IMG/VR virus record: IMGVR_UViG_3300011008_000003
From: a virus
Taxonomy: Duplodnaviria; Heunggongvirae; Uroviricota; Caudoviricetes
Strand: one strand, 5' to 3'
Length of the DNA: 64,000 nt
Positions within the stretch are counted from its first letter, which is position 1; each line of letters starts with the position of its first letter. Below are positions 3,097-57,192 of this stretch, piece by piece. A program made the translations under genes and the position numbers. The notes under the pieces were generated by a model. The model saw nothing but the letters and a program-made list of their open reading frames with translations, made no database searches and was not told where the DNA came from.

Positions 3097-3130
3097 AATA
3101 TAGAAAAAGGGCTGACTTTCGTCAACCCTT
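3097..3130 (-). promoter_or_regulatory. Fused intrinsic terminator / sigma70-type early promoter
   Basis: Minus strand AAGGGTTGAC-GAAA-GTCAGCCCTTTTTC-TATATT; TTGACG-17 bp-TATATT. Confidence 0.85.
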
Positions 3131-3149
3131 AATAGGTAAAACAAATTGT

Positions 3150-3881
3150 TTAGAAATCAGAAAGACTGTCTCTGTCGTAGAAGTCTTCATCCGGGTTCTT
3201 TTCCGGGAATTCTTCAAGTTCAGAACCGTATTCAATATCGTCGTCATCTTCGAATTCGTTATCACCGAGCGTATCGGCAATGAGATCGTCTAATCCTTCA
3301 TCGGTAGGACCTTCAGTCGGGGTTCCAAGAAGAACATCCTGGTCAACATCCGGATAAACCTTCTGAAGAAGGTCAAGTCCGTCAGGCATGATGAACCACT
3401 TATTACGAGAGTTATCATACTTGATGAAATAGTTATCGGTCATTGCAGCAAACATGCTCTGGTCAGTTCCTTCACGAATTCCAGCGATTTCCTTAAGTTC
3501 AGCCGGTTCAAGATAACCACCGTTATCATAAAGAGCCTTAAGAACCTTAATATAGATACGGTCTGCAGACGGTTTCGAGAAGTTATAGCTATACTTGCTT
3601 TCGACAATATAGCCATTTTTCTTAAGAAGATTCAATGCGTTTTTAACTTCTGCAGATTCTGCAGTAACTGGACGATTTGCACGACGTCCAATGCTGAAAA
3701 TATCTTCGATAGCTTCGACCGCATTGTTATAATCGCATGACTTCTTATCAACTGCCTGTAAAACCTTGAGAACAAGATTCTTAATCAAAGACAGATTACC
3801 GCTCGGAACATTAGACTTAGAAGCTTTACGAATATAATTGTAAACGTCTTCAAGTCCATTAATATTAACTTCGTTAATCAT
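3150..3881 (-). CDS. Late protein with internal NALNLLKKNGYIVE tag, probable winged-helix domain and acidic tail
   Basis: TATAAATA at 3901-3908 and AGGAG SD; wHTH-like segment IKVLKALYDNGG..AELKEIAG..KWFIMPDG. Confidence 0.6.
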   Translation of the reverse strand: MINEVNINGLEDVYNYIRKASKSNVPSGNLSLIKNLVLKVLQAVDKKSCDYNNAVEAIEDIFSIGRRANRPVTAESAEVKNALNLLKKNGYIVESKYSYNFSKPSADRIYIKVLKALYDNGGYLEPAELKEIAGIREGTDQSMFAAMTDNYFIKYDNSRNKWFIMPDGLDLLQKVYPDVDQDVLLGTPTEGPTDEGLDDLIADTLGDNEFEDDDDIEYGSELEEFPEKNPDEDFYDRDSLSDF

Positions 3882-3900
3882 AATTTCTCCTGTTTTATAT

Positions 3901-3908
3901 TATTTATA
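3901..3908 (-). promoter_or_regulatory. T4-type late promoter TATAAATA
   Basis: Exact octamer upstream of SD+ATG. Other copies: 21393, 21935, 26991, 28158, 44911, 45998, 58659, 60741, 62434, 63838 (minus); 22016, 28162, 62474 (plus). Confidence 0.75.
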
Positions 3909-3909
3909 G

Positions 3910-5058
3910 TTATTCTGAATCTCTTTTAACGAAAAGCGTAAATCCAATAAAACCAATAAAATAAAGCAGGGCGAGAATAAGATATAACGTATTGGTGGTA
4001 AAGATGTTCGCAAGAACCGGACCTGCGATACCAGCCATACCCCAACCGCTAAGTGTCATTGCATGGACGGTAGAAACACAGGAATTTCCAAATCTCTTGG
4101 CGAGCAAGGACGGAAGACAGCTGAAGTTTCCACCATAAGAGAATTCACAGAATAAGATACCGATAAGCAAAAGAATCGGCTGTTGAGTATAGCAAAGGAA
4201 CGCTCCTAGAATACCCAGACTACAAACCCAGTGATATGCCGCCTTTCTTCCGATTTTATCCGATGCCGTACTCATTCCGAACCTGCCGCCGACGTTGGCA
4301 ATAGCCGTTAACGACATGAGCATTGCAATAGCCGTAAATCCGGATCCGAGTAGCAATCCCTTTTCCTGTGAAATCAAAGCGAGACCGCATGTAATGTTGA
4401 TAAAGAACATGAACCAGATAGAAATATATTCTTTCGTCAGGAATTTCGCTTTCCACAGGTTCTTATAAGGAACAGCGGTATAGATAGTCGAAATGTATGC
4501 AGGATTCGGCTTGTATAACCAGGAAGAAAGACTCATGACTCCAAGGAATATCGAACCCATCAAAAGGAAAACGACCGGTAACGAGAAACTGGTCAGGAAA
4601 TATTCAATCATAGGCGAGGCGACAAATTTACCGAGTCCGAATCCTGTAATTGCTAAACCGCTTGCGAGGCCTTTATGGTCGCTGAAGTTAGCCATAAGCT
4701 GCTTAATCGGCGACGTATAGCCTATTCCAGTTCCGCATCCCATGAAGGCACATGCGACATAATAAAGCGGAAGAAATCTGGAATAAACGGATAACGAAAG
4801 CATGAGCATGCCGACAGCGAACAGTACGGTTGATACGATAGCCATTCGTTTTGGATTCATCTCGACGAAACGGCCGAAAGCCGCAGCTCCCATGCCGAGG
4901 AAGAAGATAATGAGGGTAAACCCGATGTCAGCCTGGAATTTGCTAATATCGAAAGCCTCCATTATGTTCTTTGCATATTGTGAATAGTTATAGACGCTGC
5001 CTAATGAAATAGGCAGAATCAAACCTGGAATTAAAATATTTAAGTATCTGTTTTTCAT
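3910..5058 (-). CDS. MFS transporter, oxalate:formate antiporter (OFA/YhjX-like) family
   Basis: About 12 hydrophobic segments; G.GTGIGY.SP, DHKGLASGLAITGFGLG, ASDKIGRK, YGGNFS.LP, SGWGMAGIAGP. Confidence 0.85.
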   Translation of the reverse strand: MKNRYLNILIPGLILPISLGSVYNYSQYAKNIMEAFDISKFQADIGFTLIIFFLGMGAAAFGRFVEMNPKRMAIVSTVLFAVGMLMLSLSVYSRFLPLYYVACAFMGCGTGIGYTSPIKQLMANFSDHKGLASGLAITGFGLGKFVASPMIEYFLTSFSLPVVFLLMGSIFLGVMSLSSWLYKPNPAYISTIYTAVPYKNLWKAKFLTKEYISIWFMFFINITCGLALISQEKGLLLGSGFTAIAMLMSLTAIANVGGRFGMSTASDKIGRKAAYHWVCSLGILGAFLCYTQQPILLLIGILFCEFSYGGNFSCLPSLLAKRFGNSCVSTVHAMTLSGWGMAGIAGPVLANIFTTNTLYLILALLYFIGFIGFTLFVKRDSE

Positions 5059-5064
5059 AGTACA

Positions 5065-5595
5065 TTATTTATTACGCAAGATTTTCGCAATATTTTCAAC
5101 AACTTGGTCATATCCTGCAATGTTGCCATCGACTCTGGTATATTCGATACCGTTGTCATTGAGAAAGTCAAGAATACGCTGGTCGATATTTCTGGCTTCT
5201 TCTTCGGTCTGGTTTCTTCCGTTCGGATTATAGTCTTTCCTGCGGTCGACGAAGATATTGAACGTATTTTTATATTTCTTTGCCTCGTAAAGACATACAT
5301 CCTGATAAGGCTTTTCATCCGTGTACATTGCCCCGATGGCAATCGGGCTGTCGGTAACGATAACATCTACCTTTCCAAGAAGTCGAGCAACCTTAAGACA
5401 TTGCTTGCCAGTAACATAGAGCTGACAGTGCTGGAGAACGAACTGGTCGCCTTGCCAGACACGATCCTTCGCATATTCTGAGACATATTCAGAATCGATT
5501 CCGGCCATCTTGAGTTTTGCGAAGATATAAGCTGCACCTGTTGACTTTCCCGCGCCTGGACCGGCGTAAAGATTGACTAATAACGTATTTTTCAT
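5065..5595 (-). CDS. P-loop NTPase/kinase (AAA_28, NadR-kinase-like)
   Basis: Walker A GPGAGKST, VSEYAK, IVTDSP, GRNQTEEEA. Confidence 0.8.
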   Translation of the reverse strand: MKNTLLVNLYAGPGAGKSTGAAYIFAKLKMAGIDSEYVSEYAKDRVWQGDQFVLQHCQLYVTGKQCLKVARLLGKVDVIVTDSPIAIGAMYTDEKPYQDVCLYEAKKYKNTFNIFVDRRKDYNPNGRNQTEEEARNIDQRILDFLNDNGIEYTRVDGNIAGYDQVVENIAKILRNK

Positions 5596-5704: not shown

Positions 5705-6904
5705 ATGAAGATTGAATTAGATACAATACAGAATGACCTTTTGAAGACTGGCATGAAGCTCGCTTCTGCTATTTCTCGTTTCAAGACACCAGACAACAGG
5801 CTTTACCAGGCCTATCTCGTCGGTGGCTGTGTTCGAGATATTGTCAGATGGAAGCTGGGCCAGATTGAATTCCCTGAAATTCATGACATTGACATCGCGA
5901 CAAACATGCCGATTGCCGAATTGCAGAAGAACTTCAGAACTGCGAGCAACAACGGCGAAGCTCACGGTACGATTCTCGTGTTCATGGACGGAATTCCTTT
6001 CGAAGTAACTCAGTTCAGAACCGACGGTAAGTATACTGACGGGCGTCGTCCTGATAGTGTCAAGTTTACTGACGACTTCATGCAAGATTGCGCTCGCCGT
6101 GATTTCACGATTAACGCGATGGGTCTTACTGGTAACGGTATCGTATTCGACTATTTCGGCGGTATCAAGGATATTGAACGAAAGTGGATTCGTGCAGTCG
6201 GTGATCCTGTGCAAAGGTTCTCTGAGGACACTCTGAGAATTATGCGTGGTATTCGATTCATGATTAACTTCGATTACGGTATTTCTGATAAGACGTTCGA
6301 AGCCATGAAGACTGTTGTAGACAAGTACAAGTGGAAGCTTGATACCATGCTGTCATATCCCAGGATTCGTGACGAGATTTCCAAGGTTAAGACCAACCAC
6401 GCCGGTTATTTCGGTATTCTTGAAAAGACTGGTCTTCTGAACTGGCTTGTCGCTTTCAGGGATATGGACAAGAAGAACTTGATTCTTCGCCTTATGCGTG
6501 TTCCCCATGTCGACTCCAATAACGTCTTTGCGATTATCGCGTTCGGTGAAGACAAGTATACTCTGCACCGTCTGGCCGGTACTCGTGAAGATAGTCGTTT
6601 GCTCAAGTGGTATAACTACATGGCAAAGAAGCTTGACGAGACACAGGAGAACATGTCATGGGATAGCGTTGTCAAGTTCGTCGAGGGCGATTACAAGGCT
6701 GTTCTCGCAATGACCCAGAAAGTCCCTGCATGGCATAACAGGATTAAGCCTGCTTTGCAGCTTGCCAAAGACAAGCCTGACATGAAGGCGATTACCAAGG
6801 CGATTCAGGATGCGGGTACGAAGCCTGGTCCAAAGTTTGGTCTTGCGGTCGATGCTCTTGTCGAGGCTGATTACGTCGAAAAGGCAAACAAACTCAAGTT
6901 CTAA
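5705..6904 (+). CDS. cca: CCA-adding enzyme / tRNA nucleotidyltransferase (class II)
   Basis: VGGCVRD, DIDIAT, FEVTQFR, DGRRP, RRDFTINAM, RFSEDTLRIMRGIRF. Confidence 0.9.
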   Translation: MKIELDTIQNDLLKTGMKLASAISRFKTPDNRLYQAYLVGGCVRDIVRWKLGQIEFPEIHDIDIATNMPIAELQKNFRTASNNGEAHGTILVFMDGIPFEVTQFRTDGKYTDGRRPDSVKFTDDFMQDCARRDFTINAMGLTGNGIVFDYFGGIKDIERKWIRAVGDPVQRFSEDTLRIMRGIRFMINFDYGISDKTFEAMKTVVDKYKWKLDTMLSYPRIRDEISKVKTNHAGYFGILEKTGLLNWLVAFRDMDKKNLILRLMRVPHVDSNNVFAIIAFGEDKYTLHRLAGTREDSRLLKWYNYMAKKLDETQENMSWDSVVKFVEGDYKAVLAMTQKVPAWHNRIKPALQLAKDKPDMKAITKAIQDAGTKPGPKFGLAVDALVEADYVEKANKLKF

Positions 6905-6907: not shown

Positions 6908-6937
6908 ATAAACCCGGTTTTGAACCGGGTTTTCTTT
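6908..6937. terminator. Bidirectional intrinsic terminator between convergent genes
   Basis: AAACCCGGTT-TTG-AACCGGGTTT flanked by A/T runs. Confidence 0.8.
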
Positions 6938-10654: not shown

Positions 10655-11068
10655 TTAACCTTCAAGTGCGTCAAGTGCAGAATTAATTTCAAGATTATAA
10701 TAATGTACTCGATAGTCGTTCAGTTCTTTCGTGATTTTTGCCGCAATATCCCTAGGGTCTTCATTTTTCTTTAAATATCTGATTTTCCTCAATGAACGTA
10801 AAACGAATTTCTGCGGTTCAAGCTGGAAAATATCGCTATGGTCGGCGACTACATCGAATATCGTAAATTTGAAACTACTTTTCAACCCGTCTACCATAAA
10901 GCTGTTCCATACGATGAAAAATCCGGTTCCGCCCTGTAACATGTCGTTTTCTATCAAGGCGCCGATCTGTTTGTCACTGCAAATGAACGTAGGCCTATAT
11001 CCGAAGGACTTAAGAAATTCGTATGCCTGGTTTTTCGTAAAGCAAATTTTATCATCAAACATAATCAA
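10655..11068 (-). CDS. Paralog array 1 member
   Basis: FLKSFGY.P..LQGG..FIVW; ends YNLEINSALDALEG. Confidence 0.8.
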   Translation of the reverse strand: MIMFDDKICFTKNQAYEFLKSFGYRPTFICSDKQIGALIENDMLQGGTGFFIVWNSFMVDGLKSSFKFTIFDVVADHSDIFQLEPQKFVLRSLRKIRYLKKNEDPRDIAAKITKELNDYRVHYYNLEINSALDALEG

Positions 11069-11433
11069 CCCAAATCGTTAAGTGCGTCCATTGTTTCGCG
11101 GTTACAGATTGTCAAGTAATACTTATTGATTTTCTTTTTCATGTCTTTAAATTTCTTATCAAACTTTTCTTCCCAGTCGAATGTATCGGTCGAAATATAT
11201 TTCCTGAATTCGTCGCGTGGAAACGTAAATTCGATAATACGACCAGCCCTGTCATTACGTTTCGTAAAGAAACAAAATCCTTTATCACGGTCCCACATGA
11301 TAACTCGCCGAGAAGCCCAGCCGTGGAGTTTTTCAAAAATCGGGTGTTCGTAAATACCGTAAAGTATTCCCATACCATACTCTACTTCCAGTCCACGTTC
11401 TTTTAAAAAATCTGCTGCTTGGTTCATAAACAT
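11065..11433 (-). CDS. Paralog array 1 first gene (leaderless)
   Basis: Start corrected to ATG 6 nt after TATATT; FLKERGLEVEYGMG..HP..VIMWD; ends NRETMDALNDLG. Confidence 0.8.
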   Translation of the reverse strand: MFMNQAADFLKERGLEVEYGMGILYGIYEHPIFEKLHGWASRRVIMWDRDKGFCFFTKRNDRAGRIIEFTFPRDEFRKYISTDTFDWEEKFDKKFKDMKKKINKYYLTICNRETMDALNDLG

Positions 11434-11439
11434 GTGTAT

Positions 11440-11474
11440 AATATAATAAAAAGGGTGACTTTCGTCAACCCTTT
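11440..11474 (-). promoter_or_regulatory. Fused terminator / early promoter heading array 1
   Basis: GGGTTGAC-GAAA-GTCACCCTTTTTAT-TATATT; 17-bp spacer. Confidence 0.85.
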
Positions 11475-11497
11475 CCTTATCTCCATTATACCCAAAT

Positions 11498-11797
11498 TTA
11501 CTTCCAGCTATTACAGTCTTCAGGGAAATGCTTTGCACATTGAAGCATCTTGCCGATACCGTAAGAGCAATGCTGACAATGCTTGCACTGTTCAGGTACA
11601 TTCAGAACGAATTTCTCAAGGAAATGCTTTGCGTCTTCCATAGTCATACAGCTGATTGTATGAGACATAGTACGGTCGGCGTAATGCCAAACCGAAGCGA
11701 AGTTTTTCCAGAAGAACCAGCCCTTCCATTGCGGAAGATAACAGCTGTCGTTAACCTTCTTGATTCGATACTTGTTGCCGATTTTCAGAATTTCCAT
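11498..11797 (-). CDS. Hypothetical protein with C-terminal Cys cluster
   Basis: YLPQWKGWFFW; CKHCQHC..C..C. Confidence 0.6.
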   Translation of the reverse strand: MEILKIGNKYRIKKVNDSCYLPQWKGWFFWKNFASVWHYADRTMSHTISCMTMEDAKHFLEKFVLNVPEQCKHCQHCSYGIGKMLQCAKHFPEDCNSWK

Positions 11798-12173
11798 TTT
11801 TATTTCCCCGTTCTAAGTTTGCAATTTTTTGTTCAAGCATTTCGATTTTTTCTCGATTCCATTTATCGAGCCATGGTCCGTTTACCGCCCAGAAACGTTC
11901 GTCGATACTACATGCGGCCAATTGTCCGTATTTATCAGTCAAACGATTTCGTTTAAACTCGGCTAGCTGTTCTGGTCTCATCCGCCTTTTGTCTTCAGTA
12001 GTAATTTCAAAAATACTCGGTTCAGAATCAACCTTATGACCGTCGTGAGCATATAAGGGCGTAACGCTTATGACCGGATATGAGATCTTACCCCAGGATT
12101 CGTTAATCCCGATTGAAATTACCGGATTGCCATTAATTTTTTGTAATTCTGCGATAAGATCTTCTTTTCTCAT
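11751..12173 (-). CDS. Hypothetical protein
   Basis: 140 aa in operon. Confidence 0.65.
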   Translation of the reverse strand: MRKEDLIAELQKINGNPVISIGINESWGKISYPVISVTPLYAHDGHKVDSEPSIFEITTEDKRRMRPEQLAEFKRNRLTDKYGQLAACSIDERFWAVNGPWLDKWNREKIEMLEQKIANLERGNKNGNSENRQQVSNQEG

Positions 12174-12174
12174 G

Positions 12175-12495
12175 TTAAATCATTCCCCAGTGCTGTACGA
12201 GACCGATAATCAAAAGGACAAACATCGGAATGAATGCCAAGAACTTAAAAAGTCCGACAATCTTTCCTGTAATCATTTGCAAAAAGCCGCCGCCGATTAT
12301 CAGCAGGAATAAAGTTGCGACAATGATACCGATAACGAAAGCCAAGATTCCGCCGTATGAAATTGCAAAGGCACACATGCCAATTTCAAGTACGTCAAAG
12401 ATAACAACAGGAATGCTTCCCTTTTCACCGAAAAGCTGCTTAACCAGGTCGATACCTTCGTAAATTGCGAAAATGGTTAGAATTGTTGCAAGCAT
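12175..12495 (-). CDS. Membrane protein (3-4 TM)
   Basis: Hydrophobic; AAGGAG SD. Confidence 0.7.
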   Translation of the reverse strand: MLATILTIFAIYEGIDLVKQLFGEKGSIPVVIFDVLEIGMCAFAISYGGILAFVIGIIVATLFLLIIGGGFLQMITGKIVGLFKFLAFIPMFVLLIIGLVQHWGMI

Positions 12496-12509
12496 TGTTT
12501 ATCTCCTTA

Positions 12510-12944: not shown

Positions 12945-12971
12945 TTTATACCTTTTTGGTTCGATATATTT

Positions 12972-13010
12972 AATATAGCAAAAGAGTTGACTAGTGTCAA
13001 CCCCCTTTTT
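12972..13010 (-). promoter_or_regulatory. Fused terminator / early promoter
   Basis: GGGGTTGAC-ACTA-GTCAACTCTTTTGC-TATATT; TTGACA-17-TATATT. Confidence 0.85.
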
Positions 13011-13419: not shown

Positions 13420-13420
13420 A

Positions 13421-13735: not shown

Positions 13736-13736
13736 A

Positions 13737-14780: not shown

Positions 14781-14818
14781 AATATAGAAAAAGGGTTGAC
14801 TTGCGTCAACCCCTTTTT
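14781..14818 (-). promoter_or_regulatory. Fused terminator / early promoter
   Basis: GGGTTGAC-GCAA-GTCAACCCTTTTTC-TATATT. Confidence 0.85.
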
Positions 14819-16238: not shown

Positions 16239-16308
16239 TTTTAACTCCTTGGTTTAATGTTCTTGAAGATGTTATCAATATAGCAAATAAAAACGTTCTT
16301 GTAAACCC

Positions 16309-17163
16309 TTACATCAGCGACTTTATGTCGACGCCGGCCTTTTCGGCGAGCTTTTTGGCGATTTCTTCCCAGTTGACTTCCTTTTGGGGATTTTTCTTCT
16401 TCGCCGTGGAATTCTTCTTCGGGGGTTTCTTGGCTTTCACCATTTCGGTCACTCGTTCGAGAATTCCCATATGTTTCAAAATCTGTATGGCCTTACGCAT
16501 ATAATCGCCGTCTTTCAGGAATTCCTGTTTTTCATAGCTGGACCTACGAAGTTTGGAAACATACAGGTTAATAAACTTGTCGGAAACATTCTTGAATACG
16601 TATTTAATCGGTTTATACCTATCGAAATCGCCTGCGAGACGATCATCCGGGCCGATCGGTCTTGTTATGACTTGGGTATGTATACCGCCGATTTTAAGCG
16701 GCTGGTTAATGAGTTTTGTACAATATGCCTGTTTAAATTCAAGACCGACCACAGTTGAATATTCGCCAAATGACATATTCGCATCTGCCGTATATCCGTC
16801 ATTTTCTTCATCGCATGAACTGAATAAAATACCGTCGTAGATAGTATCGTCGATACAAATCTTATGTCCGTTATAATCGGTTTCGTCTACTTCGACTTCA
16901 TGCGGGTGCGGTTCTTTACATTCAAGATGAATATCGTGAACCTTGAAATGATAATATTTAGTAGACCTGTACGGTTTTTCAATCTGGTCTTCCGGGATAT
17001 ATTCGTGATAATCCAACGCGTCGTCAAGATATGCATGGAAACAGTACGAGATAACAAGCCCGTCAGCACGCTTGACAGCCTTCCACGAATCAACGGTATA
17101 TTCTTTACCGTCAGATTTCCTGATGAACTTGTCGCCGAGATAATACTTAAGCTTGATTTTCAT
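16309..17163 (-). CDS. Hypothetical protein, Lys-rich C-terminus
   Basis: 284-aa ORF. Confidence 0.7.
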   Translation of the reverse strand: MKIKLKYYLGDKFIRKSDGKEYTVDSWKAVKRADGLVISYCFHAYLDDALDYHEYIPEDQIEKPYRSTKYYHFKVHDIHLECKEPHPHEVEVDETDYNGHKICIDDTIYDGILFSSCDEENDGYTADANMSFGEYSTVVGLEFKQAYCTKLINQPLKIGGIHTQVITRPIGPDDRLAGDFDRYKPIKYVFKNVSDKFINLYVSKLRRSSYEKQEFLKDGDYMRKAIQILKHMGILERVTEMVKAKKPPKKNSTAKKKNPQKEVNWEEIAKKLAEKAGVDIKSLM

Positions 17164-17417: not shown

Positions 17418-17451
17418 AATATAGAAAAAGGGCTGACTTTCGTCAACCCTT
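17418..17451 (-). promoter_or_regulatory. Fused terminator / early promoter
   Basis: AGGGTTGAC-GAAA-GTCAGCCCTTTTTC-TATATT. Confidence 0.85.
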
Positions 17452-18963: not shown

Positions 18964-19028
18964 GAGAGTAAATATAGAAAAAGACCGGCTTAATAGTCGG
19001 TCTTTTATTTTTATTTGAAAAATTTTAT

Positions 19029-21048: not shown

Positions 21049-21083
21049 AATATAGAAAAAGGGCTGACTCTCGTCAACCCTTT
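21049..21083 (-). promoter_or_regulatory. Fused terminator / early promoter
   Basis: AAGGGTTGAC-GAGA-GTCAGCCCTTTTTC-TATATT. Confidence 0.85.
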
Positions 21084-25071: not shown

Positions 25072-25104
25072 AATATAGAAAAAGGGCTGACTTACGTCAA
25101 CCCT
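25072..25104 (-). promoter_or_regulatory. Fused terminator / early promoter
   Basis: AGGGTTGAC-GTAA-GTCAGCCCTTTTTC-TATATT. Confidence 0.85.
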
Positions 25105-25108
25105 GTTT

Positions 25109-25655: not shown

Positions 25656-25688
25656 AATATAATAAAAAGGTTGACTCTCGTCAACCCA
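25656..25688 (-). promoter_or_regulatory. Fused terminator / early promoter
   Basis: GGTTGAC-GAGA-GTCAACCTTTTTAT-TATATT. Confidence 0.85.
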
Positions 25689-25712
25689 TTATTCATTAAA
25701 AATTTCTTTTAA

Positions 25713-29834: not shown

Positions 29835-29868
29835 AATATAGTAAAAAGACTGACATTTGTCAGCCTTT
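29835..29868 (-). promoter_or_regulatory. Fused terminator / early promoter (variant)
   Basis: AAAGGCTGAC-AAAT-GTCAGTCTTTTTAC-TATATT; CTGACA-17-TATATT. Confidence 0.75.
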
Positions 29869-33176: not shown

Positions 33177-33260
33177 TTCACCATCTTCACTAAAATTATT
33201 ATTTTTTATATTTATAATATAGAAAAATCCTTGATTGTTGGTCAAGAATTTATATAATTT

Positions 33261-49989: not shown

Positions 49990-50023
49990 AATATAGAAAA
50001 GGATTGACTCTTCGTCAACCCTT
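49990..50023 (-). promoter_or_regulatory. Fused terminator / early promoter
   Basis: AAGGGTTGAC-GAAGA-GTCAATCCTTTTC-TATATT. Confidence 0.85.
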
Positions 50024-50522
50024 AAATAGCAAGTAATTCTACTTCTGTTTGTAAATCTCTTCGCCATTGATGATATTCATACGGTATGGTGTCCATTTCG
50101 TGGTTCGGTATTCCCATTGAATTATGGATTGCATCCTTCGTAATGTACGGTTCCCACTTTTGAAAATATGGAATAAATTTCAACGTCAAGTCGATAGTTT
50201 CTTTCAGCTTGTCATTTGTGAGCCAGGCAAAAAACTCCGTATCTTTATATTCAAACTGATACATTAAAACAGAATTTCTGAAAGTCTTATGTTTGACTGC
50301 ATAATCAGGCTCAACATAGTATGCACGAATATCGATTGCGTTTCTGTCTACTCTCCACTTGAAATTAATCTCGAAACATGGTCCAAGGATTTCGACAGTA
50401 TCGCTTGCTGCAGACGGATAAACACGCATATGGCTCATATAGTAAGTATTACCATAAACAGCCATAAACGTATCTTTTATACGATGTGCAAATTCTGAAA
50501 AATCAAAATAAGACATAGACAT
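50022..50522 (-). CDS. Hypothetical protein, paralog of 46605
   Basis: LMYQF....EFFAW; ends LQTEVELLAI. Confidence 0.65.
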   Translation of the reverse strand: MSMSYFDFSEFAHRIKDTFMAVYGNTYYMSHMRVYPSAASDTVEILGPCFEINFKWRVDRNAIDIRAYYVEPDYAVKHKTFRNSVLMYQFEYKDTEFFAWLTNDKLKETIDLTLKFIPYFQKWEPYITKDAIHNSMGIPNHEMDTIPYEYHQWRRDLQTEVELLAI

Positions 50523-51631
50523 TAACAGACATAGCCTTCTGCGAATTTTCCAGTAACATTATCCTTAAGGATTTTCGGAATAATGCAACCGGCCTTGGTT
50601 ATAATAACTTCATGTCCGATTTCAAGACCGAGAGCCTCGATACATGCGACATTGGCGAGGCTTGCACGCTTAACGGTAGTTCCGCAAAGTTCGCAAGGTT
50701 CGCAGATTGCGACCGGAGTAAGAGTTCCATTCCTGAGAGACCATTCAATATTGATAACTTTAGTCGTGGCAAGTTCATACTTCGGCTTCAAAGCAATGGA
50801 ATACTCAGGAAGATAATTAGTTTCCAAGTCTTCATAATCGATGTCAGAAGTCTTCCATACGATACCGTCAATATCGTAATCTCGATCCTGCTTCCAGACC
50901 TGCTCCATAAGGTCGATAGCCTTCTGACCGTTCATGGACTTAAGGTCATAAATCGTGTACTCGACAACATCGAAACCCTGTGACTTCATCCAGTCGAGCA
51001 TATCGACCTGAGTGGCGAAACGGGCATAACGATTACGGGCTTCATAAACCTTGACATTGAGCTTATCGCAGTCGGCGCCGTCGAGATGCTTCATAATACC
51101 AGAAGCTGCATTTCGACAATTCTTATACTGAGGGAAATACTGTTCACGGACAGAACGGTAAAGAAGGATTTCACCGCGAATAGTTCCAGTATACTCATCC
51201 TTGAGCTTCTTCGGAACATTTCGCATACGCTTGACGTTTTCGGTAATATCGTCACCGGTTTCACCGTCACCGCGAGTAATTGCCTGAACGAACTTACCAT
51301 TTTCATATTCAAGGGCGATAGAACAACCATCGAGCTTCAACGGGGCGACAACGTATTCATGACCAGCCATTCGACACTTGTTGAACCATGTGTCCATTTC
51401 AGGAGCCGTATTGGCCTTATTCTGAGAACCCATGATAATCGAGTGCTTTGCCTTGGCAAAACCGTCGGTATGATCCGAACCGACAACCTTGAGAAGTTCG
51501 GAATCCGGATATTTGGTTTTCAGTTCGTCCCAGAGTGCATCGAATTCGATGTCGCTCATGATAGGAGAGTCAGAGTTATAATAGGCATCCTGTGCCTGAC
51601 GGAGTTTTGCTTCAAGTTCGTTCTTATTCAT
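50522..51631 (-). CDS. ligA: NAD-dependent DNA ligase, C-terminally truncated (Ia + adenylation + OB only)
   Basis: YY..P..SD.EFD, KLDG, TRGDGETGDDIT, RGE, RNAASG, DGIVWK, GTLTPVA, RASLAN, KAGCIIP; no Zn/HhH/BRCT. Confidence 0.85.
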   Translation of the reverse strand: MNKNELEAKLRQAQDAYYNSDSPIMSDIEFDALWDELKTKYPDSELLKVVGSDHTDGFAKAKHSIIMGSQNKANTAPEMDTWFNKCRMAGHEYVVAPLKLDGCSIALEYENGKFVQAITRGDGETGDDITENVKRMRNVPKKLKDEYTGTIRGEILLYRSVREQYFPQYKNCRNAASGIMKHLDGADCDKLNVKVYEARNRYARFATQVDMLDWMKSQGFDVVEYTIYDLKSMNGQKAIDLMEQVWKQDRDYDIDGIVWKTSDIDYEDLETNYLPEYSIALKPKYELATTKVINIEWSLRNGTLTPVAICEPCELCGTTVKRASLANVACIEALGLEIGHEVIITKAGCIIPKILKDNVTGKFAEGYVC

Positions 51632-51637: not shown

Positions 51638-51673
51638 AATATAGCAAAAACTAGAGGACTTGTCAACCCTCTA
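51638..51673 (-). promoter_or_regulatory. Fused terminator / early promoter (variant stem)
   Basis: TAGAGG-GTTGACAAGT-CCTCTAGTTTTTGC-TATATT; ATG 6 nt downstream. Confidence 0.8.
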
Positions 51674-54097
51674 AATCAGAAATAGCCCCAACAGATTCGC
51701 AATAATTCAGAGTAGCGGCGTCAAAAGCTCGCATCTTAGTTCCGTTGATTTCTATTTCCGCATTTTCATCAATAAAAAATTTCCTGCCTTGCGAATCCAG
51801 TGCTGCATACAATCCCAAGTTGTAAAGAATATCAGTTATTGTAGCTTCTCTACCATAAATCGTAATTTTAACATTTGTCTTTGTAGTCATATCTTTATCC
51901 ATCAAGTGCATCCAGTATATTCAATGTTCTACAGGACTGAATAAAAGCGTTCACATCGCCTTTGTTATCCATCCTGTAATCTATACCTTCCAATTCGATA
52001 ACCATATCCAGTGTAGGCAATATAATCGTATCGTCACACTCGATATAAGTAATGACTTCCAAATCTTCGTAATTATTACTGCTCGTAGAAATCTTAACTA
52101 CGTTATATTCTTCACCGTCTATCTTTATCCTAGCCATTTAAATTATCCAATGCAAGTTCTGTCATAATATTATTATAAAATAAATCTAATTCGCCGGATT
52201 TCTTAAAATCATACATTTTACCGTTATATTTGACATACCGAATATACATCGGGCTAAGCGAATAACGATTTAATGTCGTTGTTCCAGACTTCGATGCCCA
52301 TAAATATACACCATATATCCTATATTCGTTTTTCCAGGGCTCACAAGAACGTACATAGTAAGTATGGTTTTTTCCGTCTATTTTAAACCTTACCGATGTA
52401 CTCATAATTTTTCCAGTGCAAGCTCTGTCTCAATCGCGTTATAGAACATCTCGGCGTCATGTTCTTTCTTAAAATCATATGTTCTTCCGTTATACTTAAC
52501 TTCAGTAATGTCGCCGTAATCATTTATCCATGCTTGTCTAATTCCTGGAGGATCCGACTTTCCATCCCATATTGGTTTCGGATAAATACGTTTAACATTC
52601 AAACACACACCAAAAATTCTTTCAGGTCTGCCTCCGCCACCTTCGACAGAAGATGAACAGTCGAATACCTGATACAGTTTCGGAATCTTTTCGTATTTTG
52701 TTCTGAACATTACCTTAATCATAAACACTCCAAAGCCAAATCAGTCGAAAGTTTCTGATACAGGACTTCAACTTCTGTCTCATTGCACATATTGTATTGC
52801 TTGCCCTGATAGATAAGCTTATTTGCCGGCATTCCTACGCAGACCCAAATATCTTCAATCAACGGCTGAATTATTGTATTACATGTTCCCCAGACTTTTT
52901 CTGATTTTTTATGAGATGGCGGCGGAGTAAATTTTGTCTTAACCAATGCTCTAACCTTTAAGTTAACTCCTTCCAAAACATCTCTTTGTGCAGTAAATGA
53001 AAAACGTCTAATCGTATTACAGCGTAAAACTTGATAATCAGCATGATTTATTGTTACTCGTATCATTTCAAATCCTCCAATGCGACTAATGTATTGAATG
53101 TCTGAATAAACGCATCAACGTCATAGGCAGAATCCATATGGTAAACCTTTCCGTTCATTTCTATCTTTTGACTCGGGGTAATTACAATAAAACCAAATGT
53201 CCCACGTTTGGTAGCATAAACTATAGAATTAATTTTGTTTGACGGACAATTTTCAATATCAGAGAAAAAACTTTCATCCGACATATTAATACTTTTAGCA
53301 TTATATACTATATCATAAATTTTAATCGGTATCATATCTGGTCCAACAAGTACAAAAGTTTACAATGTTCTTCAAATTTAATATTATCCCATTCATCGGC
53401 TATATTATATTCGACATTATCCATTTTTATAACGGATTTTTCAATGCCAAGCAAATGAGTAGAGTCAGCTGTTTCGCTCACTTTATAAACTATGCCTGTT
53501 ACATGCTTTCCGTTAAACGACTTAAGCAATTTCGTAACATAGACAGTTCTCCAGAAGTTATCCTTATTCCGTTTCAGTTCCATTTTAATCATAGACTATC
53601 CAGTGCCTGTACTGTCAAAAACGTGTTTTCAAACATCTCATTTTCTGCGATATTAGCGACTCTGAACTTATAACCGTTAAATTCTACACAAGAATACTCA
53701 TTGAAACAATAAATAGAATCATCATACAGCAATACTCCGTCAACAGACTTACTGTTGAACCCTTTCAGTATCATCTTTACAAACATAAAGACTCCATCGA
53801 TTTTCATAGAGTAGAACTTATTCATCCCGCCAACTCCTCAATCGACTGAATTGTATCAAATGCCTGTTGAAGTTCTTCCTCGTCGGCAGGCATTTCAACA
53901 CCGTTAATCTTTACTTTATAAACGCCCCGTAAAGAAATCTTTGTTTCTTGTCCTTTATGATTCAATACGCAAATACTCGTAACCATATCATAGATACTGG
54001 TGCGAATATACCCAGTCGCCTTGACATTAAGCTCGTATGTATGCTTTTCATCATTAGACCGATAAATTATTGTCATCGGAATCGGATTAGAAATCAT
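51663..54097 (-). repeat. Paralog array 2: nine tandem small genes (51663-51890, 51895-52137, 52130-52405, 52402-52728, 52719-53066, 53063-53335, 53332-53592, 53589-53825, 53822-54097)
   Basis: Shared I.IDG..Y.V ... (Y/M/I)NG..Y.(M/F) ... F...T..AL(E/D).L. Confidence 0.8.
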
Positions 54098-54489: not shown

Positions 54490-54523
54490 AATATAGAAAA
54501 AGGGATGACTTTCGTCAACCCTT
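54490..54523 (-). promoter_or_regulatory. Fused terminator / early promoter
   Basis: AAGGGTTGAC-GAAA-GTCATCCCTTTTTC-TATATT. Confidence 0.85.
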
Positions 54524-54875
54524 ATTTAAGTCTGTCTATTTCCTTAAGTTCATTAAACAACTGACCAAATGCGACTTGTTCATCATGGTTCCACAATCTG
54601 AACGTATGCCCGCCAAGTTCGACGACTTCTGTACGAGTTAACGGAACAAATGTCATCTGCAGTTTAGATTTACGGTTTGCACCGTATACCTTATCCTTCC
54701 GGTTTCTACTTTGAGGCGCCGGAGTATATGTAAATGGTCTTAGGAAATAAATTCCGCCAATCTGATTATAAACCCGCTGAGTAGGCCATTCAAATATTAT
54801 TTGCTTTGACCAATAGACTTTTTCAACATTATTATAAACTAGATTGTTGATTTTTACACTTACCATGGACGTCAC
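54522..54875 (-). CDS. Paralog array 2 family member
   Basis: VKINNLVY..V...VELGGHTF.L...FNELKEIDRLK. Confidence 0.65.
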   Translation of the reverse strand: MTSMVSVKINNLVYNNVEKVYWSKQIIFEWPTQRVYNQIGGIYFLRPFTYTPAPQSRNRKDKVYGANRKSKLQMTFVPLTRTEVVELGGHTFRLWNHDEQVAFGQLFNELKEIDRLK

Positions 54876-56082
54876 CCTTGTAGAGTTTCTTCAGTTCACG
54901 ATTTGTCTTCATCCAGAGATCCGGACGAACACGGTCGATAGAACCGAACTTGATAGCGTTAATAGCGATACCGACATACTGCTTGCACTTATATTCCGTC
55001 GCGACTGCTACGGCTGTCTCATAACGAGTACGAGCGTCTTCGATACCGGAAATTCGAGTTACGATACCCTTGACCTTTTCCAAGGCTTCAGCATAGTAAC
55101 GCTCAACAATTCCGACGTAATTACGCATACCAGCGAGCTCTTCCGGAATGAACTTCACATAGTCAATATCGACTACGCCAGTCATACAGTCGAAATGGTC
55201 GCGGATAGACTTGTACGTAATGCAGTTAATACGTTTAAACATCTCGATATATTCATCACCCTTGACCTTCAAACGGAACTTGACCGGATAACCGTTGATA
55301 GTATGTGCAGAATTGAAAGCCAACACATAACCTTCATAGTTAAGGTCAAGCTTCTTGGCCTGGTCCACACAGTCCTTCAGATTCTGATAACCAGTAATGA
55401 CTTCCGTTACAGGTACGCCGATTTCCTTAGCCAACTTTTCAAGGTCAGCTCGCGGATATTCAAGATGGGTCGCATAGAAAGCGCTAAGCAAAGTCAATCC
55501 TTCGTAATCGTAATGAACTACGTGAACATCGTCCTTGCTCGTAGATTCGAAACAGTATGTTTCTCCGTCAATAAGCTTGCTTGCATCTACATGGTCGTCA
55601 AACCACTTCTTAGCCCAGATTGCCTGTTCAGAATAGAAGCTGCCCGGAGTCTTCAAAATCCAGTCATCCTTATACTTGAAACAGATAATCAGAGAACCGT
55701 CAATCTTGTTAGTCGCCAAAAACGAACCGGCAATGCTCGGCTCGAATTCCTTAAAACGGCTGATAATCTTACCGGTCTCGGCATAGGTTCCGTCTTCTGC
55801 AAAGATTTCAGAATAGTTAAAGAACTTGTCGAACGGATGTGCGACAATCTTACCAGTCTTCTTTTCGAAAACGATACCGCGGCACTGCATAGTCACCTTG
55901 TCCCAGTGACCTGCATAAGTCGTAGCAAGGCTATACTTGAAACCGACCAAATCTTCAGTTTCATGCTTGGTAAGCCAGCCCTTGCGGACATAGCGATAAC
56001 ACTTCTTCATGAAAAGCCAAGACTTAAACGCCTTCCACTTTTCGCCTAAATCAAATTTGATTCTGTAGTATAAGTTAATCAT
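54832..56082 (-). CDS. RNA ligase 1 (T4 Rnl1/RnlA-like)
   Basis: QCRGIVF, PFDKFFN, motif I KIDGS, TYCFE, YEGYV, KVKGDEY. Confidence 0.85.
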   Translation of the reverse strand: MINLYYRIKFDLGEKWKAFKSWLFMKKCYRYVRKGWLTKHETEDLVGFKYSLATTYAGHWDKVTMQCRGIVFEKKTGKIVAHPFDKFFNYSEIFAEDGTYAETGKIISRFKEFEPSIAGSFLATNKIDGSLIICFKYKDDWILKTPGSFYSEQAIWAKKWFDDHVDASKLIDGETYCFESTSKDDVHVVHYDYEGLTLLSAFYATHLEYPRADLEKLAKEIGVPVTEVITGYQNLKDCVDQAKKLDLNYEGYVLAFNSAHTINGYPVKFRLKVKGDEYIEMFKRINCITYKSIRDHFDCMTGVVDIDYVKFIPEELAGMRNYVGIVERYYAEALEKVKGIVTRISGIEDARTRYETAVAVATEYKCKQYVGIAINAIKFGSIDRVRPDLWMKTNRELKKLYKGDVHGKCKNQQSSL

Positions 56083-56387
56083 AGCTCCTCTATTGCAAAT
56101 GCTTCTTCTAAAGCGTCTGCCAACATTTTTCGTTCTTCGTCTTTACTGACATTAAAAGTTAAACCGTTATAGTCTACATAATGATTCTGCATCCAACCAT
56201 GAATATTGCTTGTTCCCCAAAGGTCAATCAATTCCGGTAAATCATATTTGTTTTCTTCTGGCAACCATCGTTCGACCGATAATACTGGATGAGCCATGAA
56301 ACTATCCTTCGGAGTGAAGTCAAATCTACCGTTATGGTAAAATCCCCGAACTTTATACTTTTCATCGCTAACCTTTATCTCAATCAT
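56079..56387 (-). CDS. Paralog array 2 family member (leaderless)
   Basis: VDYNGLTFNV; ends ALEEAFAIEEL. Confidence 0.7.
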   Translation of the reverse strand: MIEIKVSDEKYKVRGFYHNGRFDFTPKDSFMAHPVLSVERWLPEENKYDLPELIDLWGTSNIHGWMQNHYVDYNGLTFNVSKDEERKMLADALEEAFAIEEL

Positions 56388-56417
56388 ACGTAAAATATAG
56401 TTAATATTCTACGGAGG

Positions 56418-56738
56418 TTAACCCTCTAAATTTTCTATCGACAATTCTGTCTTTAATGCGTCATACAGCATGGCTCGTTCCGGAGGCAAATCCATATCAT
56501 AAATTCTGCCTGCATATTCAATCGACTGCAAATCACTGTTAATAAGCTGTAACTCTTCCATACCGTAATAAGTAGTCGTTACCTGAACACCGTTTACCGT
56601 AATTACGCCGTCGACTCGCTTTGCGATAATTTCAGGAATCCATACGAAGTCATCTTTTTCTGACATGGACTCATATTGGTGCAAAAAATCCAGGACTTCA
56701 TATGTTCTTCCAGTCTTTAAAAACTTGATTACTGCCAT
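56418..56738 (-). CDS. Paralog array 2 family member
   Basis: IEYAGRIYDM; ends ALKTELSIENLEG. Confidence 0.75.
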   Translation of the reverse strand: MAVIKFLKTGRTYEVLDFLHQYESMSEKDDFVWIPEIIAKRVDGVITVNGVQVTTTYYGMEELQLINSDLQSIEYAGRIYDMDLPPERAMLYDALKTELSIENLEG

Positions 56739-56740
56739 TT

Positions 56741-57145
56741 TTACTCCAACTGGTTAATTGCCGTTACAGTATTAAAGTTATGCTCAATTATCGACATGAT
56801 ATGCCTGACATACTTATAGAAATCAGACATTTTCGGACAACGCATATCAAATTCAGGTTCCTTAATTTCAAATCTCTCATCGCCAAAGATAAGTGTATCG
56901 TTTATGAAAATATCCATACACTCATTTACTTCCTCAGCGGTACCGGTATCTTCAGAAACCATGATACACGTATACCAGATTTCGAATAACGGAACACGGT
57001 CAATAAGGCACGGATTATAACACCAATCCGAAATATCCTCATTATCTTCGCAATCGTCGACTACGCACTTGAACTTGATATTGTACGAATTGTCGATATA
57101 TTCGTACTTATTGTCTTCGCCACGTATAACCTTAATATTCCTCAT
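56741..57145 (-). CDS. Hypothetical protein (leaderless), family-type C-terminus
   Basis: Ends FNTVTAINQLE. Confidence 0.65.
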   Translation of the reverse strand: MRNIKVIRGEDNKYEYIDNSYNIKFKCVVDDCEDNEDISDWCYNPCLIDRVPLFEIWYTCIMVSEDTGTAEEVNECMDIFINDTLIFGDERFEIKEPEFDMRCPKMSDFYKYVRHIMSIIEHNFNTVTAINQLE

Positions 57146-57151
57146 ATTAAT

Positions 57152-57192
57152 AATATAGGAAAAAGACTGACTTTTGTCAAGCCAGTCTTTTC
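57152..57192 (-). promoter_or_regulatory. Fused terminator / early promoter (variant stem)
   Basis: AAAAGACTGGCTT-GACA-AAAGTCAGTCTTTTTCC-TATATT; TTGACA-17-TATATT. Confidence 0.8.

What the first reader, a model, noticed from the sequence alone, without database searches (positions are those of the whole stretch)
3097..57192. Fused terminator-promoter cassette repeated 13 times: the -35 box is the 5' arm of an intrinsic terminator
Seen at 3097, 11440, 12972, 14781, 17418, 21049, 25072, 25656, 29835, 49990, 51638, 54490 and 57152 (weaker at 18971, 33216). The minus-strand consensus is AGGG-TTGAC-[loop]-GTCA(A/G)CCC-TTTTT-C-TATATT. In all 13 the -35 (TTGACG/A; CTGACA at 29835) is exactly 17 bp from TATATT, and the spacer holds the loop, the 3' arm and the U-tract. 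Loops are mostly GNRA (GAAA, GCAA, GTAA, GAGA). Stem variants keep pairing through G-U wobble or compensatory changes, which points to selection on RNA structure. Inference: one ~35-bp module stops the upstream transcript and restarts transcription, insulating gene cassettes. It could also serve as a recombination joint for cassette shuffling, or as a palindromic operator or cruciform for coordinated early shut-off.
Basis: partly seen in the sequence, partly recalled or inferred. Interest (0 to 1): 0.75.

Follow-up and report, generated by a model that had tools for sequence, protein, structure and literature searches.

The report
Fused terminator-promoter cassettes in phage
Thirteen copies of a ~35-base signal that most likely stops one message and starts the next sit between small genes of an uncultured giant gut phage; this kind of cassette is already known from T4-like phages, but here it is unusually compact and often leaves no leader before the start codon.

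Summary
All 13 sites, and the two weaker ones, are on the minus strand with a -35 box, an exact 17-bp spacer and TATATT. The spacer holds a hairpin arm and a T-tract. A covariance model finds no further strong copy.

The module is a PeSL-type composite of early promoter and stem-loop, a kind described for T4-type phages (PMC2839356, PMC4122927). The window has no DNA match among deposited phages. It shares genes and the module with a 411-kb viral contig that carries a T4-type capsid gene.

New here:
- The geometry is strict, with two hairpin designs: the -35 in the arm, or partly in the loop with unrelated arms.
- A canonical T-tract follows the stem.
- In 8 of 13 sites the ORF's ATG lies 6-8 nt after the -10, which predicts leaderless mRNAs.

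No RNA ends could be read, because only contigs were available. A role as a recombination joint is weakly supported, by one exact junction. An operator reading is disfavoured.

This scan has noted similar PeSL-like leaderless cassettes on other DNA.

The parts
3097..3130 (-). Class A module: AAGGGTTGAC-GAAA-GTCAGCCCTT, T-tract, TATATT; ORF ATG 8 nt after the -10
11440..11474 (-). Class A module with a bulged stem, loop GAAA; ORF ATG 6 nt after the -10
12972..13006 (-). Class A module, -35 TTGACA, loop ACTA, G-U pairs at the stem base; SD-led ORF with ATG 27 nt after the -10
14781..14817 (-). Class A module, loop GCAA, perfect stem; SD-led ORF (AAGGAG) with ATG 23 nt after the -10
17418..17451 (-). 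Class A module with the same core as 3097; SD-led ORF with ATG 24 nt after the -10
21049..21083 (-). Class A module, loop GAGA; SD-led ORF with ATG 23 nt after the -10
   Evidence: repeat unit bounded 21049-21082 by loose ends of DNA contigs
25072..25106 (-). Class A module, loop GTAA; ORF ATG 7 nt after the -10
25656..25689 (-). Class A module, loop GAGA; ORF ATG 7 nt after the -10. The orthologous gene in G004 has a different hairpin in the same geometry.
29835..29868 (-). AT-richer class A module, -35 CTGACA (C-G replaces U-G in the stem), loop AAAT; ORF ATG 7 nt after the -10
49990..50023 (-). Class A module with a 5-nt loop GAAGA; SD-led ORF with ATG 19 nt after the -10
51638..51676 (-). 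Class B module: arms TAGAGG/CCTCTA, most of the -35 TTGACA in the loop. Drives the NAD-dependent DNA ligase gene, with ATG 6 nt after the -10.
54490..54523 (-). Class A module with one stem mismatch, loop GAAA; ORF ATG 6 nt after the -10
57152..57192 (-). Shifted-register module: stem GACTGGCTT/AAGTCAGTC, loop GACAA (3' half of the -35); ORF ATG 6 nt after the -10
18971..19005 (-). Weak copy: unrelated hairpin GACCGAC/GCCGGTC, T-tract and TATATT, no recognisable -35
   Evidence: (24.1 bits)
33216..33250 (-). Weak AT-rich copy in the low-GC island: TTGACC, 18-bp spacer, stem TTCTTGA/TCAAGGA
   Evidence: 28.8 bits
60574..60642 (-). Unfused arrangement: a strong terminator hairpin (60616-60642), then a separate promoter GGGTTTACG-17-TATATT with an ORF ATG 6 nt after the -10
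56394..56427 (-). Same promoter type (GGGTTAACC, 16-bp spacer, TATATT) with only a short weak hairpin and no T-tract; ORF ATG 6 nt after the -10
16277..16310 (-). Hairpin-less promoter AAGGGTTTACA-17-TATATT; SD-led ORF

Best explanation
Each copy is a composite gene-punctuation module of a large uncultured T4-like phage of the ruminant gut.

How it would work:
- A sigma-70-type early promoter (TTGAC[G/A], 17 bp, TATATT) has an intrinsic terminator nested inside it.
- The hairpin's 5' arm is GGG plus the first five bases of the -35. The sixth -35 base opens a mostly GNRA loop. The 3' arm and a T5 tract fill the spacer up to about -13.
- Host RNA polymerase coming from the upstream gene would form the hairpin in its transcript and release it in the T-tract.
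- A new transcript would start 6-8 nt after the -10. It would not contain the hairpin.
- In 8 of 13 copies this start falls on the ORF's ATG, so those messages would be leaderless. The other 5 have a Shine-Dalgarno leader.
- The effect is that each small accessory gene, or short gene group, is expressed and insulated on its own within a 31-81 nt intergenic space.

What is shown and what is inferred:
- Shown from sequence: the motif, its spacing, its position between ORFs, its strand asymmetry, and its conservation in relatives with varied arms.
- Inferred: use by the host sigma-70 holoenzyme, termination, transcription start sites and leaderless translation.

This is the PeSL principle of T4-type phages in a more compact and more regular form.
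For: Motif and spacing.

Independent scanner: 13 of 13 sites are promoter-like and 9 of 13 terminator-like.

Position: all 13 lie between co-directional ORFs, with stop-to-ATG distances of 31-81 nt.

Fusion of terminators to promoters:
- Window sense strand: 14 of 21 terminator candidates are followed at once by TATA[AT]T. Antisense strand: 2 of 6.
- Relative G004 sense strand: 37 of 65. Antisense strand: 1 of 26.

Hairpins at promoters: 14 of 19 strict promoters in the window and 35 of 69 in G004 carry a hairpin of -7 kcal/mol or better. About 14% of background 37-nt windows reach that value.

Sense-strand RNA: the sense fold is more stable than the antisense fold in 45 of 49 elements (Wilcoxon p = 4e-9).

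Loop base: the sixth -35 base is G in 22 of 32 class A elements against 4 of 56 others (Fisher p = 1.7e-9). The less-than-consensus G appears where it opens the tetraloop.

Varied arms: 14 class B or shifted elements have 14 different arm cores. Native folds average -14.8 kcal/mol, arm-swapped chimeras -4.8 +/- 3.5, and 1 of 182 chimeras reaches the native mean.

Orthologous sites keep the geometry with different stems:
- The ligase promoter in the window, G004 and L028, with one A-T to G-C double change between G004 and L028.
- The gene at 25656 against G004 at about 202,150.

Spread: 34 model matches in G004, 33 of them on one strand.

Published reporter data for RB49/phi1 PeSLs (PMC2839356, section 14 read): a PeSL stem-loop lowered lacZ expression about as much as rrnB T1, and a PeSL gave about 13,000 Miller units.

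Leaderless starts:
- The ligase ATG is the first start codon in its frame.
- It lies 6-7 nt after the -10 in three lineages.
- Its N-terminus aligns with the relatives.
Against: There are no expression data. The only RNA material was assembled contigs, which cannot show starts, ends or strand.

Among the 13 window copies covariation is not above shuffles. On their own they could be recent copies of one sequence.

The class B set was chosen because it folds, so its native energies are biased. Only the chimera and background controls bear weight.

Part of the sense/antisense energy gap comes from the tetraloop and A-U extension terms of the energy model.

Hairpin-less promoters also have a T-rich -17 to -13 (TTTAC/TTTGC). 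The T-tract may therefore be partly a promoter feature.

Stop codons lie 3-8 nt from the -35 at five sites, so a terminating ribosome could hinder hairpin formation.

The host, and hence its polymerase and its capacity for leaderless translation, is unknown.
Confidence: 0.78

Rival explanations
1. The repeats are mainly recombination joints (PeSL-type linker sequences). Short conserved cassettes let homologous recombination insert, delete and swap the flanked genes, and transcription signals are secondary.
For: - In L028 against L030 (about 82% identical relatives), homology runs through the upstream gene and the module to the last base of TATATT, then stops. Different genes follow (event 2).
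- Copies are bounded sharply: loose ends of DNA contigs fall at 21049/21082 and 25656/25687.
- Gene order between the window and G004 is heavily shuffled.
- Mini-circle formation between PeSLs is published for RB49/phi1 (PMC2839356, passages read).
Against: - Only 1 of about 10 junctions in the five L028/L030 events sits on a module. The others lie at gene boundaries without one, and one is a homing-endonuclease insertion.
- In natural variants laid on 11301-31300, the replacement at 20369-20743 does not touch a module. The join 21943 to 27001 lies between two copies of a different 37-nt repeat.
- Class B modules share too little sequence to recombine with each other, yet keep the geometry.
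Confidence: 0.3
2. The inverted repeat is a DNA operator or cruciform. A dimeric phage or host protein binds GTTGAC..GTCAAC over the -35 and shuts off all early promoters together.
For: - Class A copies carry a near-perfect inverted repeat centred on the -35 edge, and its sequence is highly conserved.
- Early shut-off is a known need of T4-type phages (general knowledge).
Against: - At least 14 modules in the window and G004 keep a hairpin at the same place with unrelated arms.
- The commonest pair at one stem position is U-G, and there are 18 G-U cells in the 13 copies. These are mismatches in duplex DNA and on the other strand.
- The sense fold beats the antisense fold in 45 of 49 elements.
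- A T-tract follows the stem on the sense strand only.
- Half of the palindrome is simply the -35 box.
Confidence: 0.07
3. The hairpins are not terminators. They are RNA 3'-end stabilisers or processing sites, or they only tune promoter strength through spacer DNA properties.
For: - Hairpin-less promoters share the T-rich end of the spacer.
- T4-type early transcripts are known to be processed (general knowledge; PMC3014915 seen only in a search listing).
Against: - Stem length, G-C base, 4-nt loop and an immediate T5 are the standard intrinsic-terminator form, and they are strand-specific.
- A stabiliser would still need a 3' end made there.
- Tuning through spacer DNA does not explain arms that lie upstream of the -35 in class B.
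Confidence: 0.1

Closest known systems
PeSLs (promoter-early stem-loops) of T4-type phages RB49/phi1 (Arbiol et al. 2010, PMC2839356; abstract, section 14 and passages read)
   Same: - A strong sigma-70-like early promoter is combined with a stable stem-loop between small co-directional ORFan genes of a hyperplastic region.
- The stem often uses G-runs and C-runs, with G-T pairs.
- The paper names subclasses with the stem-loop between the -35 and -10 or overlapping the -35.
- It proposes transcriptional insulation and cassette shuffling.
   Different: In the RB49 stretches I scanned (100 kb of 164 kb), the stem-loops fill the spacer (115005, 117381, 121708, 134521) or overlap the -10 (3174, 18504, 36958, 42327). 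They have no T-tract, and none uses the -35 as an arm. The -10 is TATAAT, and the paper states that a Shine-Dalgarno site and start codon follow.

Here the geometry is fixed, a T5 tract follows the stem, the -10 is TATATT, and 8 of 13 copies have the ATG 6-8 nt after the -10. There is no detectable DNA similarity to RB49-type phages.
PeSLs and PmSLs of T4/PST and KVP40/nt-1 (Comeau et al. 2014, PMC4122927; parts 1-2 of 3 read)
   Same: Composite promoter-terminator motifs in distant branches of the T4-like phages. They are clustered in variable regions and lie near indels.
   Different: In those phages the stem-loop lies just upstream of the promoter (figure legends 3-4), so the two parts are adjacent and not nested. 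The promoters deviate from consensus (TTTACW and TTGYVH). They are SD-led.
Canonical intrinsic (Rho-independent) terminators followed by a separate promoter
   Same: A G-C-rich hairpin with a 4-nt loop and a U-tract. The window also has unfused examples (60616-60642 followed by the promoter at 60574; 6908-6934 is bidirectional).
   Different: In the module the terminator lies inside the promoter, so one 35-nt stretch serves both.
PeSL-like leaderless cassettes noted earlier in this scan on other DNA (e1-5707438, e1-5689462, e1-3507994; AI notes, unchecked)
   Same: Repeated promoter cassettes set against start codons of small genes in uncultured large phages. One is a T4-like phage with goat and sheep gut relatives.
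   Different: No sequence link to this window was found. e1-5707438 is described as terminator-free, whereas here the terminator is the conspicuous part.

Membership tests
PeSL (promoter-early stem-loop) cassettes of T4-type phages | Sigma-70-like early promoter with -35 and -10 boxes at about 17-bp spacing | tested here: met
   13 of 13 have TTGAC[G/A] (one CTGACA), exactly 17 bp, then TATATT
PeSL (promoter-early stem-loop) cassettes of T4-type phages | Stable stem-loop within or next to the promoter | tested here: met
   All 13 fold at -8.6 kcal/mol or better (-8.6 to -17.7; class A mean -14.7) when the stretch from 14 nt upstream of the -35 to the -10 is folded
PeSL (promoter-early stem-loop) cassettes of T4-type phages | Lies between small co-directional, mostly ORFan genes of a variable region | tested here: met
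   All 13 lie between minus-strand ORFs. 85 of 90 small ORFs and 16 of 30 larger ones have no PHROG match at the thresholds used.
PeSL (promoter-early stem-loop) cassettes of T4-type phages | The genome is a T4-type phage | tested here: inconclusive
   The window itself holds no capsid or replication core gene. Its relative G004 shares the ligase at 75% aa, other genes at 25-89% aa, and the module. G004 has a Gp23-family capsid gene (233.8 bits) that is only about 34% identical to cultured T4-like capsids.
PeSL (promoter-early stem-loop) cassettes of T4-type phages | Shine-Dalgarno sequence and start codon at the 3' end of the cassette | tested here: not met
   Met at 5 of 13. At 8 of 13 the ORF's ATG lies 6-8 nt after the -10 with no room for an SD.
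PeSL (promoter-early stem-loop) cassettes of T4-type phages | AT-rich stretch upstream of the -35 | tested here: inconclusive
   The consensus upstream is A-rich (AAnAAAGGG), but it is short and partly belongs to the stem
PeSL (promoter-early stem-loop) cassettes of T4-type phages | Association with indels and gene swaps between close relatives; mini-circles | tested here: inconclusive
   One exact junction at a module. Other junctions lie elsewhere. Mini-circles are not testable.
PeSL (promoter-early stem-loop) cassettes of T4-type phages | Measured promoter and terminator activity | not testable with these tools
   Needs reporter assays or RNA end mapping
Intrinsic (Rho-independent) terminator | G-C-rich stem, short loop, and a U-tract directly after the stem on the transcribed strand | tested here: met
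13 of 13 by my looser rule allowing one mismatch.
Intrinsic (Rho-independent) terminator | RNA 3' ends in the U-tract | not testable with these tools
   Only assembled contigs of RNA runs were available
Leaderless mRNA | Transcription start on, or within a base or two of, the A of the start codon | not testable with these tools
   The geometry fits: ATG 6-8 nt after the -10 at 8 of 13 modules, and at 11 of 19 strict promoters in the window and 23 of 69 in G004. No start site was mapped.
Palindromic operator | Sequence-specific inverted repeat conserved as DNA, the same on both strands | tested here: not met
   Arms are unrelated in 14 elements. G-U pairs and strand asymmetry are present.

The most novel reading that the evidence does not exclude
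The module is a complete stop-restart-translate unit. Termination happens inside the next promoter, so polymerase released in the T-tract, about 10-14 bp before the next start, could be recaptured and re-initiate without leaving the DNA. The new message then begins on its own AUG. On this reading the fixed geometry itself is under selection, since it is kept by two unrelated hairpin designs and across orthologous sites. That would give a natural, minimal (31-64 nt) insulator for autonomous single-gene cassettes in a deep-branching lineage of about 400-kb T4-like phages.
Probability: 0.15. Interest if true: 0.7.

Novelty: new variant of a known kind. Interest (0 to 1): 0.42.

Why it matters
The finding shows that the PeSL principle of T4-type phages reaches a very distant, uncultured lineage of giant gut phages. 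There it has a stricter and more compact form: the terminator is nested in the promoter and the start is often leaderless.

The two hairpin designs with one geometry give comparative evidence that the RNA structure itself is selected. The original PeSL papers could not show this from two near-identical genomes.

In practice the motif marks early transcription units and true start codons in genomes where nearly every gene is an ORFan. The longest-ORF calls here overrun the module at 11440, 12972 and 25656.

It is also a candidate short natural insulator part.

The leaderless geometry is a hint about the unknown host's translation.

Tried and rejected
Searches that found nothing:
- DNA searches of deposited phages with 8 kb (megablast) and 2.6 kb (blastn) of the window gave no match.
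- No whole genome is held for the window.
- There are no tRNA genes and no Rfam family at gathering score.
- PHROG scans left most ORFs unnamed.
- Earlier scan notes by place and by sequence returned nothing.

Covariation among the 13 window copies is not above shuffles.

RNA evidence. Two metatranscriptome runs (X15, X16) were laid as contigs.
- X15 contigs stop at 14735 and resume at 14821, around the module at 14781. DNA contigs of X2 and X3 bridge that place.
- This is one study only. Contigs also break at repeated words and cannot show ends, strand or that the stretch is transcribed. I draw nothing from it.
- Parts without cover (21973-23306 in X2, X3 and X16) are likewise not used, except where DNA contigs join across them.
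- Joints with a side under 30 (21083 to 21550; 21915 to 28151; 28506 to 28744; 28890 to 29945), and the joint 17452 to 27163 (side 35, most likely another module copy), were set aside.

Synteny. With only 36 hits at 25-89% aa, the window and G004 are too diverged to map synteny breaks onto modules. G003 and G005 are near-identical to G004 over the shared part, by constant coordinate offsets, so they add no indels.

Host. Contigs with the motif are binned in Methanobrevibacter, Bacilli and Coprobacillaceae MAGs. Binning of phage contigs is unreliable, so no host is claimed.

Not read: the supplementary figures of PMC2839356 (the reporter data in figure S1). I rely on the main text.

Full report
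OBSERVATION

The 15 coordinates all carry the motif on the minus strand. The consensus of the 13 main copies is AAAGGG-TTGAC-G-AAA-GTCA(G/A)CCC-TTTTT-C-TATATT, with 14 invariant columns.

- A regex scan finds a 17-bp spacer at all 13 main sites and 18 bp at 33216.
- The 12-mer at the -10 end occurs 27 times with up to one mismatch, against 2.63 +/- 1.64 in shuffles.
- The consensus scanner independently lists 13 of 13 as promoter-like and 9 of 13 as terminator-like on the minus strand.
- A covariance model built from the 13 copies and run with filters off finds those 13.
- Loops are GNRA in 8 of 13.

- At 51638 most of the -35 lies in the loop of a hairpin with other arms (TAGAGG/CCTCTA). At 57152 the stem is shifted, with GACAA as the loop.
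- Among the 13 copies pairing is kept mostly by one-sided changes. The covariation score is not above shuffles: 0.203 against 0.193, reached by 136 of 500 shuffles. My structure string for that call held one stray pair by mistake.

CONTEXT

The window is about 110 mostly small minus-strand ORFs, and nearly all lack a family.
- 85 of 90 small ORFs have no PHROG match at E 1e-6.
- 16 of 30 larger ORFs have none at E 1e-5.

Recognisable genes:
- an NAD-dependent DNA ligase (50522-51631)
- an RnlA-like RNA ligase (54832-56082)
- a CCA-adding enzyme (5705-6904, + strand)
- a thymidylate kinase (5065-5595)
- a lysozyme-domain protein (1924-2673)
- a UDP-galactopyranose mutase (27033-28127)
- a homing endonuclease (28228-29259, + strand)

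There is no DNA match among 50,697 deposited phage records.

An exact-pattern scan of IMG/VR found the motif in 5 viral contigs. One of them, G004, is 411 kb and estimated 98% complete.
- It shares the ligase at 76% nt and 75% aa, and some 30 further genes at 25-89% aa, in heavily shuffled order.
- It has 34 model matches, 33 on one strand, between 39 and 229 kb.
- It encodes a Gp23-family major capsid protein (233.8 bits). That protein is only about 34% identical to the best cultured T4-like capsids.

The window therefore most likely comes from a deep-branching T4-like giant phage. The window itself holds no core gene, so this rests on the relative.

Word shares point to bovine and sheep gut metagenomes. 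I laid two bovine DNA runs from two studies, and both hold 90-99% alike contigs.

ANATOMY AND COMPARATIVE EVIDENCE

All 13 modules lie between co-directional ORFs. The distance from stop codon to next ATG is 31-81 nt, and the stop codon lies 3-29 nt before the -35, with one overlapping it.

Terminators are mostly fused to promoters:
- Window sense strand: 14 of 21 terminator candidates are followed at once by TATA[AT]T. Antisense strand: 2 of 6.
- G004 sense strand: 37 of 65. Antisense strand: 1 of 26.

Hairpins at strictly defined promoters (TATATT, 17 bp, at most one mismatch to TTGAC):
- 14 of 19 in the window and 35 of 69 in G004 carry a hairpin of -7 kcal/mol or better.
- About 14% of background 37-nt windows reach that value.

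Two designs share one geometry.
- Class A uses GGG plus TTGAC as the 5' arm.
- Class B puts the arm upstream and leaves GACAA or ACAA of the -35 in the loop.
- Fourteen class B or shifted elements have 14 different arm cores. Swapping arms between them destroys folding: native mean -14.8 kcal/mol, chimeras -4.8 +/- 3.5, and 1 of 182 chimeras reaches the native mean. That set was chosen because it folds, so the controls are what count.

Orthologous sites keep the geometry with different stems.
- The ligase promoter has three different stems in the window, G004 and L028, with one A-T to G-C double change between G004 and L028.
- The gene behind the module at 25656 (85% aa to G004) has a class A hairpin here and a different hairpin in G004. 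In both, the ATG lies 7 nt after the -10.

Two further points favour RNA structure on the sense strand.
- The sense fold beats the antisense fold in 45 of 49 elements.
- The sixth -35 base is G, not the consensus A, in 22 of 32 class A elements but in 4 of 56 others. It is G where it opens the tetraloop.

LEADERLESS GEOMETRY

At 8 of 13 modules an ATG that opens an ORF of 122-369 aa lies 6-8 nt after TATATT: 3097, 11440, 25072, 25656, 29835, 51638, 54490 and 57152. Five modules have an SD-led start 19-27 nt downstream. The promoters at 60574 and 56394 show the leaderless geometry too.

For the ligase, the ATG is the first start codon in its frame, the N-terminus aligns with relatives, and the spacing holds in three lineages.

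Start sites were not mapped, so leaderless messages are predicted, not shown.

MECHANISM

The best reading is a nested terminator-promoter.
- The upstream transcript folds the hairpin and ends in the T-tract at about -17 to -13 of the next promoter.
- Host sigma-70-type holoenzyme starts the next message after the -10.
- The new message lacks the hairpin and often has no leader.

Termination, initiation and leaderless translation are inferences from canonical sequence features. They also lean on published assays of RB49/phi1 PeSLs (PMC2839356, section 14).

RIVALS

Recombination joint.
- One junction between L028 and L030 lies exactly at the last base of TATATT.
- The other junctions of the five events lie at gene boundaries without a module, and one is a homing-endonuclease insertion.
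- In natural variants, the replacement at 20369-20743 does not touch a module.
- Contigs of two DNA runs join 21943 to 27001 (side 57; whether other letters lie between is not known). This join falls between two copies of another 37-nt repeat.
- Repeated regulatory sequences in general, and not these modules in particular, seem to serve as crossover sites.

Operator or cruciform. This is disfavoured by the unrelated arms, the G-U pairs and the strand asymmetry.

COMPARISON WITH KNOWN

This is the PeSL concept (PMC2839356; PMC4122927).

In RB49 I scanned two 50-kb stretches. Its stem-loops fill the spacer or overlap the -10. They have no T-tract, and none uses the -35 as an arm. According to the paper's text, PeSLs end in an SD and start codon. 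The paper does state that subclasses overlapping the -35 exist.

In T4/PST and KVP40/nt-1 the stem-loop lies upstream of the promoter.

Searches for 'PeSLs' and for leaderless, early-promoter and terminator terms listed no paper that describes this nested, leaderless form or PeSLs in ruminant-gut giant phages. I judged these from listings only.

This scan's earlier notes describe similar leaderless PeSL-like cassettes on other DNA. They are unchecked and unrelated in sequence.

VERDICT

The feature is real and is correctly read in its core. It is a new variant of a known kind, and its function still needs RNA end mapping.

Noticed in passing
window 3898-3908, 21390-21400, 21932-21942, 26988-26998, 44908-44918, 58656-58666 (minus strand); 28162-28172 (plus strand): A second repeated signal, TATAAATAATA, occurs 7 times against 0.34 expected. 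Each copy is followed by an SD and an ATG, and at 26988 and 58656 a terminator hairpin plus T-run sits directly before it. It resembles the T4 late-promoter box (the consensus TATAAATA is recalled). RB49's annotated late -10 signals read TGTAAATA and TCTAAATA. G004 has the same arrangement before the orthologue of 57214-58632. This would be a late-promoter counterpart of the early module.
   Followed up: partly
window 21910-21943 and 26968-27001: Two copies of a 37-nt direct repeat (late-type box, SD, ATG and the first codons) flank about 5 kb. Contigs of two bovine-gut DNA runs join 21943 to 27001. This points to a natural deletion or insertion between regulatory repeats that are not the 13 modules.
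   Followed up: partly
window 20369-20743: In the same two DNA runs the ORF 20350-20742 is replaced by 279 other letters, with the boundaries at the neighbouring gene's start and this ORF's start.
   Followed up: no
window 28001-36000: A low-GC island (24-30% against about 39% elsewhere). It begins at a plus-strand homing-endonuclease gene and holds AT-richer variants of the module (29835, 33216). It may have been acquired from a lower-GC relative.
   Followed up: no
window 6908-6934: A perfect bidirectional terminator (AAACCCGGTT-loop-AACCGGGTTT) lies between the convergent CCA-adding enzyme gene (+) and the minus-strand genes.
   Followed up: no
window 14758-14780, 17394-17417, 16239-16276: The SD-led modules share a conserved leader, AACCAAGGAGT(A/T)A, before the ATG.
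   Followed up: no
G004 (loci L016-L025) at 135041, 154804, 212200; also 67895, 149072: Hairpin-less promoters GGGGTTTACA-17-TATATT are followed by a conserved TAACA(A/C)CGTT. L028 has a similar TTAACCCGTTAA. What this conserved transcript start does is unknown.
   Followed up: no
L034-L040 (genome contigs): Contigs carrying the exact module are binned in goat-gut MAGs labelled Methanobrevibacter (contigs of 173 kb, 191 kb, 41 kb and 5 kb), Bacilli and Coprobacillaceae. The large ones are probably phage contigs mis-binned into archaeal MAGs. The Bacilli-type labels are at most a faint host hint.
   Followed up: no
window 27033-28127: The UDP-galactopyranose mutase gene is 53-60% identical at protein level to copies in gut phage contigs and at the ends of Streptococcus suis phage records. 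It may be a surface-sugar-related accessory gene.
   Followed up: no
window 11065-11601, 12510-13022, 25109-25696: Longest-ORF calls run through the modules. The true starts are most likely the ATGs after the -10 (about 11433, 12944, 25648).
   Followed up: partly
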